15,796 nucleotides of DNA from Snowella sp. (GCA_003249095.1 QBMS01000102.1:1-15796), one strand, 5' to 3'; numbered from the stretch's first letter, positions 5,910 to 11,297 are shown. Numbers and translations are program-made. Notes: generated by a model from the sequence alone, not told the origin.

Positions 5910-6065
5910 TTAAGATAAACAAGAGCGATCAATGGGATCTGCCTTATCTCCTAATTTGACCACTGTGCCATTTAAGCGGACTCTACCCTGTAAAATTAAT
6001 TCTTCGGCATGACGACGGGAAGCCACTCCCCATTGCGATAAAATCTTTTGAATACGTTCGGACAT
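5910..6065 (-). pseudogene. Stub of an RsuA/RluB-type pseudouridine synthase: S4 RNA-binding N-terminus only, 51 codons.
   Basis: Minus-strand ATG at 6065..6063. Translation is [51 protein letters not shown]. This is the canonical S4 domain that opens pseudouridine synthases of about 240 aa or more. The catalytic domain is absent. It is too short (under 60 aa) to appear in the ORF track. Confidence 0.6.
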
Positions 6066-6311: not shown

Positions 6312-6464
6312 ATGAAACTTTTTACCGCGATCGTTGAAAAGGATATAGATACGAATCTCTATGTCGGTTATGTACTTGGAGAAGCTTTAATGAGAGCGAT
6401 CGCAGAAGGTCTTGATGGTGAAAATGTTAGTCGAGAAGAAATTTTTACTGTATTATCTGAGTAA
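6312..6464 (+). pseudogene. HicB-like antitoxin N-terminal stub fused to an unrelated helical tail (50 codons).
   Basis: Translation is MKLFTAIVEKDIDTNLYVGYVLGEALMRAIAEGLDGENVSREEIFTVLSE*. The first ~22 aa resemble the start of cyanobacterial HicB-family antitoxins (..TAIVEKD.DT.LYVGYVPG..). The rest does not continue that fold. No hicA partner is visible. Confidence 0.35.
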
Positions 6465-6500: not shown

Positions 6501-6522
6501 AAACCTAGCAAGGAGTTAGAGC

Positions 6523-6870
6523 ATGGAACCGTTGACGCTATTGGCTACAGGAGCCACGATTATTTTGACGGGAGCGTTGACCCGTTTGGGGGAGCTTTCT
6601 TTGGATGGTTCGGTTGAAAAACTGAAAAATTTAATTGCGGTGAAGTCTCCTGATACGTTGAAAAAGTTGCAATCTGCTAATCAAAATCCTGCTTTGTTAC
6701 CTGAAACGATTGAGGCAGTGGCGACTTTACTGGAAGATCCAGAAATGCAAAGAGTTGCGGAACAAGCAGTTAAGGAAAATGAATCTAATCCTTACGTTAT
6801 TAATATGATGAAAAATGTTGGGATTGTTAATCAAGGAACAATTAATAATCCGACTTTTAATTTCCACTGA
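6523..6870 (+). CDS. Hypothetical 115-aa protein. It is most likely the N-terminal module of the downstream STAND NTPase (same frame, separated by one TGA).
   Basis: Strong SD AAGGAG (6510..6515) lies 7 nt before the ATG at 6523. The start is hydrophobic and rich in small residues (LTLLATGATIILTGALTRLG), followed by helical segments and an Asn-rich linker (GIVNQGTINNPTFNFH). The stop TGA at 6868..6870 is in frame with 6943..8961. Confidence 0.6.
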   Translation: MEPLTLLATGATIILTGALTRLGELSLDGSVEKLKNLIAVKSPDTLKKLQSANQNPALLPETIEAVATLLEDPEMQRVAEQAVKENESNPYVINMMKNVGIVNQGTINNPTFNFH

Positions 6871-6942
6871 CTACAGCCGCCTGTTCAGGAGCAGGTTAAA
6901 CAAAACCTTCACAATTTACCGAATAGTGGTGTCGCGCAATTT

Positions 6943-8961
6943 GTGGGACGTGATGATGTTTTAGCGCAATTAGATCAGCAATTACAGCAAAATGATCGCG
7001 TTGCCATTTCCACTTTGACGGGGATGGGTGGCATTGGGAAGTCGGAGTTGGCGTTGCAGTATGCTTGGCAGGAATGGAATAAAAAAACTTATTTGGGGGG
7101 AATTGCCTGGTTAACGGTGGCGGATGGTGATCCTGGGTTAAGTCTTTTAAGTTTTGCTCAGTTGCATTTAGGGTTAACGTTACCGACGGAAGGAGAATTA
7201 AGCGATCGCGTTCGTTTTGTTTGGCAACATTGGTTTAAAAATGAACAGGATCAAGGGTTAATTATTTTTGATGATGTGCGAAATTATCAACAGATTAAAG
7301 CCTATTTACCGCCTCAAGCAGAAAAACGCTTTAAGGTCATTATTACAACCCGCAATAAAAATTTATCAGCAACGATTCAGACGTTACATTTAGAGCTTTT
7401 AGATCAGGATTCAGCCTTAGATTTATTGCGTTCCTATGTGACGGATGGACGTATTGATCAACAGTTAGAACAAGCAAAATTACTCTGTCGAGATCTGGGT
7501 TATTTGCCCTTAGCCTTGGAATTGGTAGCGCGATTATTAAGGCGACGGAAAAATTGGACAATTCAATCTATTCGAGAACGGTTAGCAGAAAAGGGATTAG
7601 CGGATCAAAGTTTACAAAAAAATCCGAAGTTTGATGCAGAAATGACGGCTAAAAATGGGGTTAAAGCGGCTTTTGATTTGAGTTGGGAAGCATTAGATAG
7701 CAATGCTCAACAGTTGGCCATGTATTTGAGCTTGTTTGCCCTCGCTCCTTTTTCTAAATTTTTAATTGATGCGTTACTTACTGAGCAAGATCCTGATGAC
7801 TTGGAGGAGTGGTTGACAGATAGTTTGGTTAATCTCAATTTAGTTAGCGATCTGGGAGATAATTGGTATGAATTGCATACGTTGATTCGGTATTATTTGC
7901 GGGAAAAGTTAGAGGAATCGCCGTTGAAAGAGGAAGCAAAACGCGCCTATGGTCGGGTGATGGTCAGTATTGCTCAAACGATTAAGCAAACTTTGACGTT
8001 GGAAGATATTGCTAATCTAGAGCCGTATATTGAGCATTTAAAAGTAGCGGCTGAGGAGTTTCATCAATGGTTAGAAGGAGAATATTTAACCTGGCCTTTT
8101 TACGGTTTAAGTGCATTTTATCGAGCGCAGGGACTTTATCAACAAGCGGTTCCTTATTATGAACGCTGTTTAACCCTGAGTGAGCAACGCTTCGGCAAAA
8201 ATCATCCTAAAGTGGCAACCAGTCTCAACAATCTGGCGGAACTTTATCGCGTTCAAGGGAAATACGCAGAAGCCGAACCTCTTATGGCGCGATCGCTGGC
8301 GATTAGGGAAAAGCAATTAGGAGAAAATCATCCTGATGTTGCCCAAAGTCTCAACAATCTGGCGGCTCTTTATGAGTCCCAAGGGAAATACGCAGAAGCC
8401 GAACCTCTCTATGGGCGATCGCTGGCGATTAGGGAAAAGCAATTAGGAGAAAATCATCCCCAAGTGGCAACCAGTCTCAACAATCTGGCGAGTCTTTATT
8501 ATGCCCAAGGGAAATACGCAGAAGCCGAACCTCTCTATGGGGGATCGCTGGCGATTAGGGAAAAGCAATTAGGAGAAAATCATCCTGACGTGGCAACCAG
8601 TCTCAACAATCTGGCGGAACTTTATCGCGTTCAAGGGAAATACGCAGAAGCCGAACCTCTCTATCGGCGATCGCTGGCGATTTGGGAAAAGCAATTAGGA
8701 GAAAATCATCCTCAAGTGGCAACCAGTCTCAACAATCTGGCGGCTCTTTATGACTCCCAAGGGAAATATGCAGAAGCCGAACCGCTTTATCAAAGAGCGA
8801 TTGCTATTTTCTTAGAAAAATTAGGCGAAAATCACCCCAACACTCAAACTGTAATGATGAATTATTTTCAAATGTTAGCCAAACTTCCCGACGACGAATT
8901 AAACCAACGCTTTGACCCCGAAACGGTGGAAATGTTGCATAACCTACGACAACAATTGTAG
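6943..8961 (+). CDS. STAND NTPase: NB-ARC (AP-ATPase) domain followed by a kinesin-light-chain-type TPR array.
   Basis: Walker A GMGGIGKS (7021..7044), Walker B LIIFDDV (7258..7278), IITTRN (7339..7356), GLPL-like GYLPLALEL (7498..7524) and an MHD-like ELHTLIRYYL. These are followed by at least 6 TPR units of 42 aa (GENHP.VA.SLNNLA.LY..QGKYAEAEPLY.RSLAIREKQL). The GTG at 6943 has no SD. The upstream in-frame peptide NLPNSGVAQFVGRDDVL is the usual pre-P-loop segment, so the true start is probably 6523. Confidence 0.9.
   Translation: MGRDDVLAQLDQQLQQNDRVAISTLTGMGGIGKSELALQYAWQEWNKKTYLGGIAWLTVADGDPGLSLLSFAQLHLGLTLPTEGELSDRVRFVWQHWFKNEQDQGLIIFDDVRNYQQIKAYLPPQAEKRFKVIITTRNKNLSATIQTLHLELLDQDSALDLLRSYVTDGRIDQQLEQAKLLCRDLGYLPLALELVARLLRRRKNWTIQSIRERLAEKGLADQSLQKNPKFDAEMTAKNGVKAAFDLSWEALDSNAQQLAMYLSLFALAPFSKFLIDALLTEQDPDDLEEWLTDSLVNLNLVSDLGDNWYELHTLIRYYLREKLEESPLKEEAKRAYGRVMVSIAQTIKQTLTLEDIANLEPYIEHLKVAAEEFHQWLEGEYLTWPFYGLSAFYRAQGLYQQAVPYYERCLTLSEQRFGKNHPKVATSLNNLAELYRVQGKYAEAEPLMARSLAIREKQLGENHPDVAQSLNNLAALYESQGKYAEAEPLYGRSLAIREKQLGENHPQVATSLNNLASLYYAQGKYAEAEPLYGGSLAIREKQLGENHPDVATSLNNLAELYRVQGKYAEAEPLYRRSLAIWEKQLGENHPQVATSLNNLAALYDSQGKYAEAEPLYQRAIAIFLEKLGENHPNTQTVMMNYFQMLAKLPDDELNQRFDPETVEMLHNLRQQL
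8200..8829 (+). repeat. Five tandem, near-identical 126-bp units (42-aa TPR units) inside the STAND gene.
   Basis: Units start at 8200, 8326, 8452, 8578 and 8704, each with AATCATCC. They share long identical blocks (GGGAAATACGCAGAAGCCGAACCTCT, GCTGGCGATTAGGGAAAAGCAATTAGGAGAA). A degenerate sixth unit follows from 8830 and a diverged unit precedes 8200. Confidence 0.9.
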
Positions 8962-10736: not shown

Positions 10737-10808
10737 GGGTTACTAGCTCAACGGTAGAGCACTGGACTCTTAATCCATTGGTTCAGGGTTCGAGTCCCTG
10801 GTGACCCA
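10737..10808 (+). tRNA. tRNA-Lys, anticodon CUU (no encoded CCA).
   Basis: Manual cloverleaf fold. Acceptor stem GGGTTAC/GTGACCC with one U-G pair. D arm GCTC-AACGGTA-GAGC. Anticodon arm CTGGA-CTCTTAA-TCCAT (one mismatch), with anticodon CTT at 10769..10771. Variable loop TGGTT. T arm CAGGG-TTCGAGT-CCCTG. Discriminator A. The overall sequence is close to bacterial tRNA-Lys. Confidence 0.9.
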
Positions 10809-10865: not shown

Positions 10866-11297
10866 TTAACTGGGGAAATATTCTGAATCTAGAATTTGTT
10901 CTTCAGTGAATGGGCAGTCCGTCGGGAAGGCTTCTGGGGTTAGTTTGGTTTCGGTTACTGCGTCTCGTTTGGCTTTTTTGTAAATTTCTTCGAGCTTTGA
11001 GGTTAGGTAGGGTCTAAGACTTGGGCTGTCTGCTAGGACTAACTCTATCTGGTCTCTTTGTTCGTTGATAGTTTTTATCCAACTGTTAGTTTTCTTTTGG
11101 GGTTGGTATTGGCATTTGAGCAGGTGCGTGATTAACACCTTCAAACGGTTAAAAATTTCTCTTTTGTCGCTACGGGTCATGGCTTCAATCTCTTCGATGA
11201 GGTTGTCCAGGTCAAGGGTTTGGATGTCACCACTTTTCAGGGCAGTAATGGTCTGCTCTATCCATAGATTGAAGTCGGTGCTGTAAAGGTTTGTCAT
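10866..11297 (-). CDS. DUF29 family protein.
   Basis: LYSTDFNLWIEQT...LDLDNLIEEIEAMTRSDKREIFNRLKVLITHLLKCQYQP...SWIKTINEQR..IE.VL.DSPSLRPYL...CPFTEEQILD is the classic cyanobacterial DUF29 pattern. Confidence 0.85.
   Translation of the reverse strand: MTNLYSTDFNLWIEQTITALKSGDIQTLDLDNLIEEIEAMTRSDKREIFNRLKVLITHLLKCQYQPQKKTNSWIKTINEQRDQIELVLADSPSLRPYLTSKLEEIYKKAKRDAVTETKLTPEAFPTDCPFTEEQILDSEYFPS

What the first reader, a model, noticed from the sequence alone, without database searches (positions are those of the whole stretch)
6523..8961. NLR-like STAND NTPase (NB-ARC + TPR) headed by an unassigned hydrophobic/helical 115-aa module: candidate conflict or defence sensor
The sequence shows a complete NB-ARC motif set: GMGGIGKS, LIIFDDV, IITTRN, GYLPLALEL and ELHTLIRYY. 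A kinesin-light-chain-type TPR sensor array follows. In STAND conflict systems (Avs, bacterial NACHT, plant CC/TIR-NLRs, APAF-1) the N-terminal position carries the effector or adaptor domain. Here that position is a 115-aa module with no nuclease, protease, TIR, CARD or similar signature that I can recognise. It opens with a small-residue-rich hydrophobic helix (LTLLATGATIILTGALTRLG), then helices and an Asn-rich linker. One speculative reading is a membrane-directed effector, analogous to the N-terminal helix of CC-NLR resistosomes. The gene sits in an islet of gene stubs and small repeats, between conserved cyanobacterial genes. That is the usual setting for variable defence cargo.
Basis: partly seen in the sequence, partly recalled or inferred. 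Interest (0 to 1): 0.8.

Follow-up and report, generated by a model that had tools for sequence, protein, structure and literature searches.

The report
Cell-death effector and sensor, leaky stop
A cyanobacterial immune-type sensor gene (NB-ARC + TPR) and its small membrane-attacking "Bell" effector with an amyloid-type tail form one reading frame split only by a UGA stop followed by an RNA hairpin, both conserved across distant relatives, which suggests that ribosomes sometimes read through the stop to make effector and effector-sensor fusion from one message.

Summary
Window 6523-8961 holds a 115-codon ORF, one in-frame TGA (6868-6870) and 696 further codons with an NB-ARC domain (Pfam E 1.4e-19) and six TPR_12 units.

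The 115-aa module has no Pfam, NCBIfam or PADLOC family but is not unknown. It is a Bell domain (start MEPLT, hydrophobic helix 1, helical bundle) with a C-terminal N/Q/G-rich amyloid-signalling (BASS-like) tail, as described by Dyrka et al. 2020.

The new point is the stop codon. In 25 distinct homologous junctions (35-96% identity; Microcystis, Dolichospermum, Crocosphaera and others) the Bell ORF ends in TGA (24) or TAG (1), never TAA. The NLR always follows in frame and has neither a conserved start codon nor its own BASS copy. A covarying 5-7 bp hairpin starts 8 nt after the stop in most of them. Four relatives with the classical two-gene layout (NLR with its own ATG and BASS copy) use TAA (3) or TGA (1) and lack the hairpin.

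Best explanation (about 0.6): programmed stop-codon read-through gives abundant free Bell-BASS effector and rare Bell-BASS-NLR sensor. This would be a one-gene variant of NLR amyloid signalling. It rests on comparative evidence only.

The parts
6510..6515 (+). Shine-Dalgarno-like AAGGAG, 7 nt upstream of the ATG of the Bell ORF
   Evidence: Read directly from the sequence. Its function is inferred.
6523..6810 (+). Bell-type helical domain, residues 1-96. It starts MEPLT and has a hydrophobic helix 1 (residues 4-22).
   Evidence: There are 93 homologues, nearly all free-standing proteins of about 115 aa. An exhaustive profile search finds 174 cluster representatives, nearly all 110-170 aa. The AF2 model shows six helices and a disordered tail, pLDDT 63. 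hhalign gives 98.5% probability to the BASS7-type Bell protein P0276. The features match the published Bell description.
6811..6867 (+). BASS-like amyloid-signalling tail KNVGIVNQGTINNPTFNFH (residues 97-115)
   Evidence: The tail is N/G/V/I-rich and disordered in the AF2 model. Relatives carry the same kind of tail on the Bell side and again at the NLR N-terminus in L038, L053, L055 and L059. Related motifs BASS3, 5 and 7 are listed in Dyrka Table S2. Amyloid formation was not tested.
6868..6870 (+). In-frame UGA followed by C: the conserved leaky stop and proposed read-through site
   Evidence: The stop is TGA in 24 and TAG in 1 of 25 distinct read-through-type junctions, never TAA. The next base is C or A in all but one, which has G. 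Background in 111 long ORFs of the same loci is 21% TGA. This is the only TGA among 15 ORFs of the window.
6871..6939 (+). In-frame 23-codon linker LQPPVQEQVKQNLHNLPNSGVAQ, which contains no canonical start codon
   Evidence: The linker is conserved at protein level from the first codon after the stop. pN/pS is 0.52 in frame against 1.28 and 0.85 in the other two frames. Linker length differs among homologues only by whole codons (23, 24, 26, 29).
6879..6896 (+). RNA hairpin GCCUGUU-CAGG-AGCAGGU, which starts 8 nt after the stop
   Evidence: RNAalifold predicts it independently. Of cells in the alignment, 90.7% are paired against 77% in shuffles (0/500 shuffles reach it). Twenty cells have changes on both sides. 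Slid controls give 17-43%. A perfect stem of at least 5 bp starts at offset 8 in 13 of the 16 junctions scored, and by eye also in L057 and L060. It is absent in 7 classical or no-NLR controls.
6940..7896 (+). NB-ARC / NOD module, from FVGRD through the P-loop, Walker B, IITTRN and GLPL-like motif to the MHD-like ELHTLIRYY
   Evidence: Pfam PF00931 E 1.4e-19. Motif coordinates. pN/pS is 0.23-0.50 against homologues, with pS 0.4-0.97 for all but the closest pair.
8026..8853 (+). TPR_12 / TPR_10 sensor array. It includes 4.7 tandem copies of a 126-bp unit at 8198-8790.
   Evidence: Pfam and TRF. The called NLR is 672, 756 or 840 aa in contigs that carry the identical Bell protein.
8959..8961 (+). 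TAG stop of the NLR reading frame

Best explanation
The locus is a one-gene version of the Bell/BASS-NLR amyloid-signalling cell-death system.

Shown: ribosomes that start at ATG 6523 would make a 115-aa protein. It consists of a Bell domain, with an N-terminal hydrophobic helix packed in a helical bundle, followed by a roughly 19-aa N/Q/G-rich tail.

Inferred: most ribosomes terminate at UGA 6868. The stop is weak (UGA, +4 C) and a hairpin lies 8 nt downstream. A minority of ribosomes therefore insert an amino acid, probably Trp from near-cognate tRNA, and continue in frame. This gives an 811-aa Bell-BASS-linker-NB-ARC-TPR protein.

Inferred by analogy with HET-S/NWD2, the Bell/NLR pairs and Bab/Agp: the TPR array senses a ligand such as a phage protein or a non-self cue, and the NB-ARC domains oligomerise. 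The clustered BASS segments then nucleate an amyloid fold, which templates the abundant free Bell-BASS protein. Helix 1 of Bell is released and attacks the membrane, and the cell dies.

Read-through would fix a low sensor to effector ratio. It would keep the amount of the toxic fusion low. It would also give sensor and effector an identical templating motif from a single copy.
For: 1. The stop is conserved. There are 25 distinct junctions at 35-96% Bell identity, from Microcystis, Dolichospermum, Crocosphaera, a bin labelled Caenarcaniphilales and unnamed metagenomes. They have TGA x24, TAG x1 and TAA x0. Background is 21% TGA.
2. The downstream NLR is in frame in every case. This holds whether it is NB-ARC or, in L060, NACHT, and linker indels are whole codons.
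3. There is no conserved start codon. The first ATG/GTG/TTG falls at linker codon 6, 8, 25, 27, 30, 41, 44, 52 or 55. In L010, L034 and L029 it is the Met inside Walker A.
4. The downstream part is under purifying selection. NB-ARC pN/pS is 0.23-0.50 with synonymous sites near saturation between lineages. The linker has its lowest pN/pS in the actual frame.
5. NB-ARC proteins of this clade that have their own start always carry an N-terminal module before the ..NLPxSGxxxFVGR boundary.
6. The two layouts exclude each other. Four relatives whose NLR has its own ATG and its own BASS copy (L038, L053/54, L055, L059) have TAA x3 or TGA x1 and no hairpin. None of the in-frame type has an NLR-side BASS.
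7. A covarying hairpin lies exactly 8 nt after the stop. The third-position G of linker codon 3 is invariant, and compensating changes include non-synonymous ones.
8. UGA is the leakiest stop. UGA-A is misread by tRNA-Trp, and UGA-C is the poor context used in prfB (PMC5289835).
9. Bell and BASS identity.
Against: There is no protein, Ribo-seq or reporter evidence, so everything is comparative.

No homologue with a sense codon at the stop position was found. The one apparent case, P0094 with 'W', is a gene-calling artefact of code 4 on a pseudogene.

Hairpin-stimulated read-through outside selenocysteine decoding is, to my knowledge, not established in bacteria.

The hairpin is short (5-7 bp, -5 to -11 kcal/mol). 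It is weak or absent in L009, L029 and L048.

The linker pN/pS of 0.52 is only modest.

The junctions are phylogenetically related, so the counts overstate the number of independent observations.

A common Microcystis allele (L001/L002 type) keeps stop, linker and hairpin but has lost NB-ARC. Conservation of the cassette therefore does not always go with an intact NLR.

Amyloid formation and membrane attack are inferred from homologues only. Foldseek found no significant PDB match.
Confidence: 0.6

Rival explanations
1. These are two ordinary adjacent genes. The Bell-BASS protein terminates at UGA, and the NLR is translated separately, by internal initiation or by termination-reinitiation (at GTG 6943 in the window). 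It then works with the free Bell protein without sharing a motif. The shared frame and the TGA are inherited accidents.
For: GTG 6943 exists in the window and gene callers use such starts. Bell/NLR pairs are normally two genes a few bases apart (Dyrka 2020). No fusion protein has been observed.
Against: The first start codon is not conserved, and in three loci it lies inside Walker A. Protein conservation begins at the codon right after the stop. The frame is kept in all 25 junctions and through three whole-codon indels. TAA is never used although synonymous sites are near saturation. An NLR that started at FVGR would have no BASS and no N-terminal module, unlike every self-starting relative. 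This model leaves the hairpin unexplained.
Confidence: 0.2
2. The UGA encodes selenocysteine, and the downstream hairpin is a SECIS element.
For: The element is a UGA with a hairpin a few nucleotides downstream that has a G-rich loop.
Against: L048 has TAG at the same position. No homologue with Cys at the position was found. The site lies in an interdomain linker, not a redox centre. [quoted passage not shown] The stem is much shorter than SECIS elements as I know them. Rfam at gathering threshold finds only a tRNA in the window.
Confidence: 0.03
3. The stop is a nonsense mutation or a sequencing error in a formerly fused Bell-NLR gene, which is now a pseudogene.
For: All-in-one Bell-NTPase fusions exist (P0312, 909 aa). 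Some copies are clearly decaying: P0094/L044 has a second TGA and a degenerate GIDK P-loop, and L003, L009 and L029 have truncated ORFs.
Against: The same stop sits at the same place in 25 distinct junctions from several orders. The NLR ORFs stay open for 700-1068 codons and are under purifying selection. The window's exact Bell protein was found on 18 contigs.
Confidence: 0.03
4. The conserved stop-plus-hairpin junction is mainly a DNA- or RNA-level recombination or regulatory module, for example for shuffling Bell tails and sensors or for mRNA processing, and not a recoding signal.
For: The junction is nearly identical at nucleotide level among Microcystis paralogues. These combine different Bell tails (NPTFNF type, BASS5-like INIDKQINNF type) with different downstream parts (NB-ARC-TPR, or the 97-codon tail plus a TPR-only ORF). 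The pattern is mosaic.
Against: This does not explain the in-frame requirement, the avoidance of TAA, the missing start codons or the protein-level conservation in distant lineages whose nucleotide sequence differs. It is compatible with read-through and is not an alternative to it.
Confidence: 0.1

Closest known systems
Bell-BASS / BASS-NLR gene pairs of filamentous and colonial bacteria (Dyrka et al. 2020, bioRxiv 10.1101/2020.01.06.895854)
   Same: The effector is a small Bell-domain protein (acidic residue at position 2, hydrophobic helix 1, helical bundle) with a C-terminal N/Q/G-rich motif. It lies directly upstream of, and collinear with, an NB-ARC-TPR NLR. The host range matches (Microcystis and Crocosphaera are named in the paper). 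Close relatives (L038, L053, L055, L059) are textbook pairs with BASS3- or BASS7-like and related motifs.
   Different: The NLR here has no start codon and no BASS copy of its own. It is in frame behind a conserved UGA and hairpin. The tail motif (..IVNQGTINNPTFNF) does not occur in the published pair table, where 'VNQGT' and 'IVNQG' have 0 occurrences. That is expected if the published screen required an NLR-side copy. The paper does not mention read-through (0 occurrences).
Bab/Agp amyloid-based antiphage abortive-infection system of E. coli (Ibarlosa et al. 2024, bioRxiv 10.1101/2024.11.07.622273)
   Same: A small N-terminal helical cell-death domain with a conserved 'MEPIS'-type start and a buried hydrophobic helix 1, followed by an amyloid motif shared with the sensor. 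It kills the cell on infection.
   Different: Bab/Agp are two separate genes, the Babybell domain is shorter (about 80 aa), and the system was tested experimentally. Foldseek of the model made here found no significant PDB match.
Fungal HET-S / NWD2 (HeLo pore-forming domain, prion-forming domain, NLR with an N-terminal motif)
   Same: The same logic: NLR oligomerisation nucleates an amyloid fold that activates a membrane-targeting helical domain (as summarised).
   Different: It belongs to a different kingdom, consists of two genes, and shows no detectable sequence homology here.
All-in-one Bell-NLR proteins and plant CC-NLR resistosomes (e.g. ZAR1)
   Same: The read-through product would be exactly this architecture, an N-terminal membrane-directed helix bundle fused to NOD and repeats. 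P0312 is a true Bell-NACHT fusion in the same Bell family.
   Different: In this locus the fusion is interrupted by a conserved stop, so a free effector is the main product.
Programmed stop-codon read-through in viruses (Q-beta coat/A1 at UGA; MuLV gag-pol with a structure about 8 nt downstream). This comparison comes from my own knowledge.
   Same: A leaky stop, a minor C-terminally extended product at a fixed ratio, and an RNA structure about 8 nt downstream of the stop.
   Different: This is a chromosomal bacterial gene family. The stimulator is a simple short hairpin. It is untested.
Avs / antiviral STAND and other NLR-like defence families in PADLOC
   Same: A STAND NTPase with a C-terminal repeat sensor and an N-terminal effector position.
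   Different: No PADLOC model matches except generic TPR models (PDLC01169, PDC-S39).

Membership tests
NB-ARC STAND NTPase (Pfam PF00931) | Profile match above the gathering score, plus Walker A, Walker B, sensor-1-like TTR, GLPL-like and MHD-like motifs | tested here: met
   E 1.4e-19, 70.8 bits against a cutoff of 23.5. Motif positions.
NLR-like architecture (NOD + repeat sensor) | C-terminal superstructure-forming repeats (TPR or WD) after the NOD | tested here: met
   TPR_12 E 3e-104 with 6 stretches. A 126-bp tandem array with 4.7 copies. Copy number differs between contigs.
Bell domain (Dyrka et al. 2020) | Short (about 100 aa) helical domain, mostly in free-standing proteins of 120-140 aa | tested here: met
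   The protein is 115 aa. 93 close homologues and 174 cluster representatives are nearly all 110-170 aa. AF2 shows six helices and a disordered tail.
Bell domain (Dyrka et al. 2020) | N-terminal hydrophobic helix with an acidic residue at position 2-3 ('MEPIS'-type motif) | tested here: met
   The start is MEPLTLLATGATIILTGALTRLGE. M1 and P3 are invariant, and E2, L4 and T5 are invariant or nearly so. The Kyte-Doolittle maximum is 1.49 for residues 4-22. Literature description.
Bell domain (Dyrka et al. 2020) | Sequence homology to proteins published as Bell | tested here: met
   The link is indirect. The family profile matches P0276 over its full length (E 2e-8; hhalign 98.5%). The tail of P0276..NENWQGICFKNANPTISNNTFNF, nearly equals that of the BASS7 Bell protein PAX60321.1 in Table S2. 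No accession-level identity could be shown.
Bell domain (Dyrka et al. 2020) | Fold like the solved Babybell structure (helices cupping helix 1) | tested here: inconclusive
   Foldseek against the PDB gives no match with E below 4. The model is only pLDDT 63. A profile search of PDB sequences gives nothing below E 0.1.
BASS amyloid-signalling gene pair | The same roughly 20-25 aa motif at the Bell C-terminus and at the N-terminus of the adjacent NLR | tested here: not met
   In the window and in all in-frame-stop relatives the NLR has no second copy. The feature is met in the classical relatives L038, L053, L055 and L059. The window is therefore not a classical pair, although the single copy would be shared if read-through occurs.
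BASS amyloid-signalling gene pair | The motif forms amyloid and templates its partner | not testable with these tools
   Only the composition (N5 G2 V2 I2 Q1 in 19 residues) and the disorder in the AF2 model are available.
Programmed stop-codon read-through | The stop is conserved at the same position with the downstream ORF in frame across diverged homologues | tested here: met
   25 of 25 distinct junctions.
Programmed stop-codon read-through | Leaky stop identity and context (UGA > UAG >> UAA; +4 base not U) | tested here: met
   TGA x24, TAG x1, TAA x0. The +4 base is C, A or, once, G, and never T. Background. Rules from PMC5289835.
Programmed stop-codon read-through | Protein-coding signature downstream and no independent start codon | tested here: met
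   pN/pS is 0.52 for the linker and 0.23-0.50 for NB-ARC. The position of the first start codon is not conserved.
Programmed stop-codon read-through | Conserved RNA structure a few nucleotides 3' of the stop | tested here: met
   A hairpin at an 8-nt spacing, with covariation and controls. Its effect on read-through has not been tested.
Programmed stop-codon read-through | The extended protein is actually made | not testable with these tools
   No proteomic or ribosome-profiling data were available.
Bacterial selenoprotein gene | UGA only, Cys-containing homologues, and Sec machinery in the host | tested here: not met
   TAG in L048. No Cys homologue was seen. Literature: the cyanobacteria surveyed lack the Sec-decoding trait. 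The host genomes themselves were not scanned.
Known anti-phage defence families (PADLOC-DB v2) | A match to a system-specific model (e.g. Avs, bNACHT) | tested here: not met
   Only generic TPR models hit.

The most novel reading that the evidence does not exclude
A family-wide, conserved bacterial recoding cassette (a leaky UGA or UAG, an 8-nt spacer and a covarying hairpin) sits between a Bell-BASS cell-death effector and its NLR sensor. One mRNA then yields many free executioners and a few executioner-tipped sensors that share one amyloid motif. This would be a rare case of programmed, structure-associated stop-codon read-through in a cellular bacterial gene family outside selenocysteine decoding, and a third architecture of NLR amyloid signalling besides the gene pair and the full fusion. 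A further speculative step is that the read-through level itself responds to infection, for example to phage suppressor tRNAs or to altered RF2 activity, and so tunes the amount of sensor.
Probability: 0.55. Interest if true: 0.85.

Novelty: new variant of a known kind. Interest (0 to 1): 0.78.

Why it matters
If read-through is real, it adds a recoding mechanism to bacterial immunity. It would show how the ratio of a toxic effector to its sensor can be set during translation.

It would also give an evolutionary bridge between two-gene amyloid signalling and all-in-one NLRs such as plant CC-NLRs.

The in-frame type is invisible to screens that require an NLR-side motif, and it causes systematic mis-annotation. 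NLRs get arbitrary internal starts, and one homologue was called with genetic code 4. Bell/NLR systems in bloom-forming cyanobacteria such as Microcystis and Dolichospermum are therefore probably under-counted.

The prediction is directly testable with a reporter, a western blot or one junction peptide.

Tried and rejected
1. Fused homologue P0094. It appeared to have Trp at the stop position and I first took it as proof of UGA-to-Trp decoding. All four of its contigs in fact carry TGA there, plus a second TGA and a degenerate P-loop. The 'W' comes from gene calling with code 4. I withdrew this evidence.

2. Family libraries. Pfam, NCBIfam and PADLOC were searched with the 115-aa module and with all 20 members of alignment A4. 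Only sub-threshold noise came back.

3. Solved structures. A profile search of PDB sequences and Foldseek of the AF2 model against the PDB gave no significant match. The model is only pLDDT 63.

4. The first genome scan, with alignment A1, failed because no stretch was conserved enough. It was repeated successfully with A2.

5. Accession-level cross-check of family members against Dyrka Table S2, using cluster look-up. No accessions were returned.

6. A consistent single-sequence MFE fold around the stop. There is no common MFE structure. The hairpin emerged only from alignment-based analysis.

7. Selenocysteine, pseudogene and chance explanations were considered and rejected (see the rival explanations).

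8. Literature searches for read-through together with BASS, NLR or antiphage terms found nothing relevant.

The host genomes were not scanned for suppressor tRNAs or sel genes.


Full report
**1. What is in the window**

The region 6523-8961 is one continuous reading frame with a single internal stop. ORF 6523-6870 encodes 115 aa, from an ATG preceded by AAGGAG at 6510-6515, and ends in TGA. ORF 6943-8961 lies in the same frame. Translating straight through gives ...GTINNPTFNFH*LQPPVQEQVKQNLHNLPNSGVAQFVGRDDVL....

The 696 codons after the stop carry an NB-ARC domain (PF00931, E 1.4e-19) and six TPR_12 units. The TPR part contains 4.7 tandem copies of a 126-bp unit.

**2. What the 115-aa module is**

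It has no hit in Pfam, NCBIfam or PADLOC. It does have 93 close homologues, nearly all free-standing proteins of 112-119 aa from Microcystis, Snowella and other Microcystaceae. An exhaustive profile search finds 174 cluster representatives, again nearly all 110-170 aa.

The family starts with an almost invariant MEPLT followed by a hydrophobic helix. AF2 (pLDDT 63) gives six helices and a disordered tail from residue 98. This matches the published description of the Bell domain:
- short proteins with an N-terminal hydrophobic helix and an acidic residue at position 2-3;
- a helical bundle;
- a C-terminal N/Q/G-rich 'BASS' amyloid-signalling motif that is repeated at the N-terminus of the adjacent NLR;
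- occurrence in Microcystis and Crocosphaera among others (Dyrka et al. 2020).

The start also fits the 'MEPIS' motif of Bab and related Bell domains (Ibarlosa et al. 2024).

The family profile aligns over its full length with P0276 (hhalign 98.5%). The tail of P0276 is nearly identical to a BASS7 Bell protein in Dyrka's Table S2. Other members carry BASS3-like tails (..SGIGNSQNNTFSL) or BASS5-like tails (..LEKILNFANRDIN).

A fold match to solved structures could not be shown.

**3. The stop codon is conserved**

I fetched homologous loci from genomes (L001-L012), from metagenomes (L013-L037) and by exact-protein look-up (L038-L060).

Wherever a Bell homologue is followed by an NLR that lacks its own N-terminal motif, three things hold:
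- the Bell ORF ends in TGA (24 distinct junctions) or TAG (one, L048), never TAA;
- the base after the stop is C or A, or G once, and never T;
- the NLR continues in the same frame.

This holds down to 35% Bell identity. It holds in Microcystis, Dolichospermum (L008), Crocosphaera (L010), a bin labelled Caenarcaniphilales (L009), two NCBI assemblies (L057/58), and a case where the NTPase is NACHT rather than NB-ARC (L060).

For comparison, 111 long ORFs in the same loci end in TGA only 21% of the time. In the window the Bell ORF is the only one of 15 ORFs ending in TGA.

Linker length varies only by whole codons (23, 24, 26, 29).

**4. The NLR cannot plausibly start on its own**

The first canonical start codon after the stop falls at linker codon 6, 8, 25, 27, 30, 41, 44, 52 or 55, depending on the locus. 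In L010, L034 and L029 it is the Met inside Walker A.

Protein conservation begins at the first codon after the stop ([LP]Q[PS]P..). The linker has pN/pS 0.52 in frame, against 1.28 and 0.85 in the other frames. The NB-ARC part has pN/pS 0.23-0.50 with synonymous divergence 0.4-0.97 between lineages. It is therefore translated, and the stop had ample time to drift to TAA if that were neutral.

Self-starting NB-ARC relatives always have an N-terminal module in front of the ..NLPxSGxxxFVGR boundary: a BASS motif, an EAD domain, TIR, a trypsin-like domain or a PNP domain.

**5. Complementary distribution of the two layouts**

Four relatives have the classical layout.
- Woronichinia L038: the Bell protein ends ..SQSGIGNSQNNTFSL, a hicBA pair is inserted, and the NLR starts MEIKIGQDGFGNVQHNTFNV.
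- L053/54: Bell-side ..KIGVVNQGTVVNQTNHLSF, NLR-side MTEPISNKTGVANLGPVYDQTNHITI.
- L055: Bell-side ..WKGINIKGGTTTINNPNFNF, NLR-side MITEKLQGINIGGGTTYIYNPRMSF.
- L059: Bell-side ..EKIGVVNQGTVVGQTNNISL, NLR-side MDSPIAKKLGIGNLGSVYGQTNNVTI.

In these the NLR has its own ATG and its own BASS copy. The Bell stop is TAA in three and TGA in one. None of the in-frame type has an NLR-side BASS.

The window's tail motif (VNQGT, IVNQG) does not occur in the published pair table. That is expected if the published screen required a second copy.

**6. A hairpin 8 nt after the stop**

RNAalifold on 16 and then 18 diverse junctions predicts a six-pair stem that starts 8 nt after the stop, at window 6879-6896 (GCCUGUU-CAGG-AGCAGGU). 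On the 18-sequence alignment:
- 90.7% of cells pair, against 77% in shuffles (0/500 shuffles reach it);
- 20 cells have changes on both sides, against 8.3 in shuffles;
- three pairs covary (CG/UA; UA/CG/GC; AU/UG/UA);
- slid controls give 17-43%.

Some compensating changes are non-synonymous: V to D with E to D, and a synonymous Pro change with Q to R. The third-position G of linker codon 3 is invariant. This points to selection on the RNA itself.

A perfect stem of at least 5 bp sits at exactly offset 8 in 13 of the 16 junctions scored, and by eye also in L057 and L060. Seven classical or no-NLR controls have no such stem, with MFE 0 to -4.3 against -5 to -11 kcal/mol. The stem is weak in L009, L029 and L048.

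The loop is G-rich and resembles a Shine-Dalgarno sequence. I cannot explain that.

**7. Mechanism proposed**

Shown: a free Bell-BASS protein is encoded, and the NLR lies in frame behind a conserved weak stop with a conserved downstream hairpin.

From established knowledge: UGA is the leakiest stop, UGA-A is misread by tRNA-Trp, and UGA-C is the poor context exploited in prfB. Cyanobacteria are grouped with species that have more RF1 than RF2 (PMC5289835).

Inferred: a minority of ribosomes read through and make Bell-BASS-linker-NB-ARC-TPR.

By analogy with HET-S/NWD2, Bell/NLR pairs and Bab/Agp: ligand-driven NB-ARC oligomerisation clusters the BASS segments. These nucleate an amyloid that templates the abundant free Bell-BASS protein. 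Helix 1 is released to the membrane and the cell dies.

Read-through would set the sensor to effector ratio, keep the toxic fusion rare, and give both partners an identical motif from one copy.

**8. Rivals**

- Independent initiation or reinitiation (0.2). It is contradicted by the non-conserved starts, the frame conservation, the avoidance of TAA and the missing NLR-side motif.
- Selenocysteine (0.03). It is contradicted by the TAG in L048, the absence of Cys homologues, the linker position of the site and the literature on cyanobacteria.
- Pseudogene or sequencing error (0.03). It is contradicted by conservation and purifying selection, although individual decayed copies exist.
- A recombination or regulatory role for the junction (0.1). 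It fits the mosaic Microcystis paralogues but does not explain the frame and stop rules. It can coexist with read-through.

**9. A correction made during the work**

P0094 looked like a fused homologue with Trp at the stop position. Its contigs in fact carry TGA there, plus a second TGA in the NB-ARC. The protein had been called with genetic code 4. No sense-codon homologue is therefore known, and the residue inserted on read-through remains unknown.

**10. Context**

The window matches metagenome contigs L040-L042 in gene order (cpcB, cpcA, a PBS-linker gene..., CorA, TspO, cpcE-like, S4 stub, 50-aa ORF, Bell, NLR, LmeA, a ThylakoidFormat-family gene). The called NLR is 672 aa in the window and 840, 756 or at least 659 aa (cut at the locus end) on those contigs, which is TPR copy-number variation.

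In L043 the identical Bell protein lies next to a full-length RluB-like gene, not the 51-aa stub. In Microcystis the flanks are different again, for example a transposase-like ORF in L002. I did not survey the cpcE-LmeA interval in related genomes.

**11. Novelty and verdict**

Bell/BASS-NLR amyloid signalling is known. A conserved leaky stop plus hairpin that joins effector and sensor is not mentioned in the Bell/BASS papers I read (0 occurrences of 'readthrough' or 'stop codon') or in the literature searches.

I rate this a new variant of a known kind, with interest 0.78 and confidence about 0.6 in read-through. The evidence is comparative only. One junction peptide or one reporter assay would settle it.

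Noticed in passing
window 8198-8790; L040, L041, L042: The TPR sensor is a 126-bp tandem array (4.7 copies, 87% matches). Contigs that carry the identical Bell protein have called NLRs of 672, 756 and 840 aa, which differ by steps of 84 aa (two TPR units). The sensor repeat number is therefore polymorphic in the population.
   Followed up: partly
window 5910-6065 (-); L043 367-1152: The 51-aa S4-domain ORF is the N-terminal stub of an RluB-like pseudouridine synthase. That gene is full length (261 aa, S4 + PseudoU_synth_2) next to the same Bell gene in contig L043. This points to a rearrangement or deletion at the left edge of the cassette.
   Followed up: partly
window 6312-6464; L038 3557-3992; L004 after 6358: The 50-aa ORF looks like a chimera. 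Its N-terminus, MKLFTAIVEKDIDTNLYVGYV, matches the start of the hicB antitoxin. Its C-terminus, ..AIAEGLDGENVSREEIFTVLSE, matches the end of a RelB-like antitoxin (PF25734 on P0089). An intact hicBA pair lies between Bell and NLR in Woronichinia, and a hicB-like start follows the Bell gene in Snowella. Toxin-antitoxin genes seem to travel with these cassettes.
   Followed up: partly
L001, L002, L006, L007, L013, L015, L017-L019, L022, L025 (e.g. L002 6001-7642): A common Microcystis allele keeps Bell, TGA, the same linker and the hairpin. It then continues into 97 codons with no Pfam match and a separate-frame TPR-only ORF (339 aa). NB-ARC is missing. It is either a decayed copy or a different sensor design.
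   Followed up: partly
L044-L047 (protein P0094): A public metagenome gene call translated TGA as Trp (code 4) and produced an artificial fused Bell-NB-ARC protein from a pseudogene with two in-frame TGAs. This is a trap for database users.
   Followed up: yes
window 6886-6889 and the equivalent loops in L005, L010, L037, L049, L060: The hairpin loop is G-rich and resembles a Shine-Dalgarno sequence (CAGG, AGGGGA, GAGG, GAGGGGCA, CGGGGAGGA) in almost all loci, yet no start codon follows it. The hairpin is followed by an A-rich stretch (AAAC or AAAG).
   Followed up: no
L060 610 onward: The same stop-spacer-hairpin cassette (TGA G, stem GUCCGA/UCGGAC) connects a Bell-BASS ORF in frame to a NACHT-type NTPase (GEPGAGKTT) rather than NB-ARC. 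The cassette therefore goes with the Bell side, not with one NTPase class.
   Followed up: partly
L040 19371-20156 (just beyond the right end of the window): A second NLR-type gene (NNH3 + NACHT + pentapeptide repeats, 957 aa) lies about 6.6 kb downstream of the Bell-NLR gene on the same contig.
   Followed up: no
window 10737-10808: tRNA-Lys(CTT) is the only Rfam or ARAGORN hit in the window. It lies near small unannotated ORFs and a DUF29 gene (10866-11297, minus strand).
   Followed up: no
L009 (bin labelled Candidatus Caenarcanales, 3.1-kb contig): A Bell-TGA-NB-ARC junction typical of Crocosphaera-like cyanobacteria sits in a bin labelled as a non-photosynthetic melainabacterial lineage. 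This may be a binning error or a horizontal transfer. The NLR there is truncated after 161 codons.
   Followed up: no
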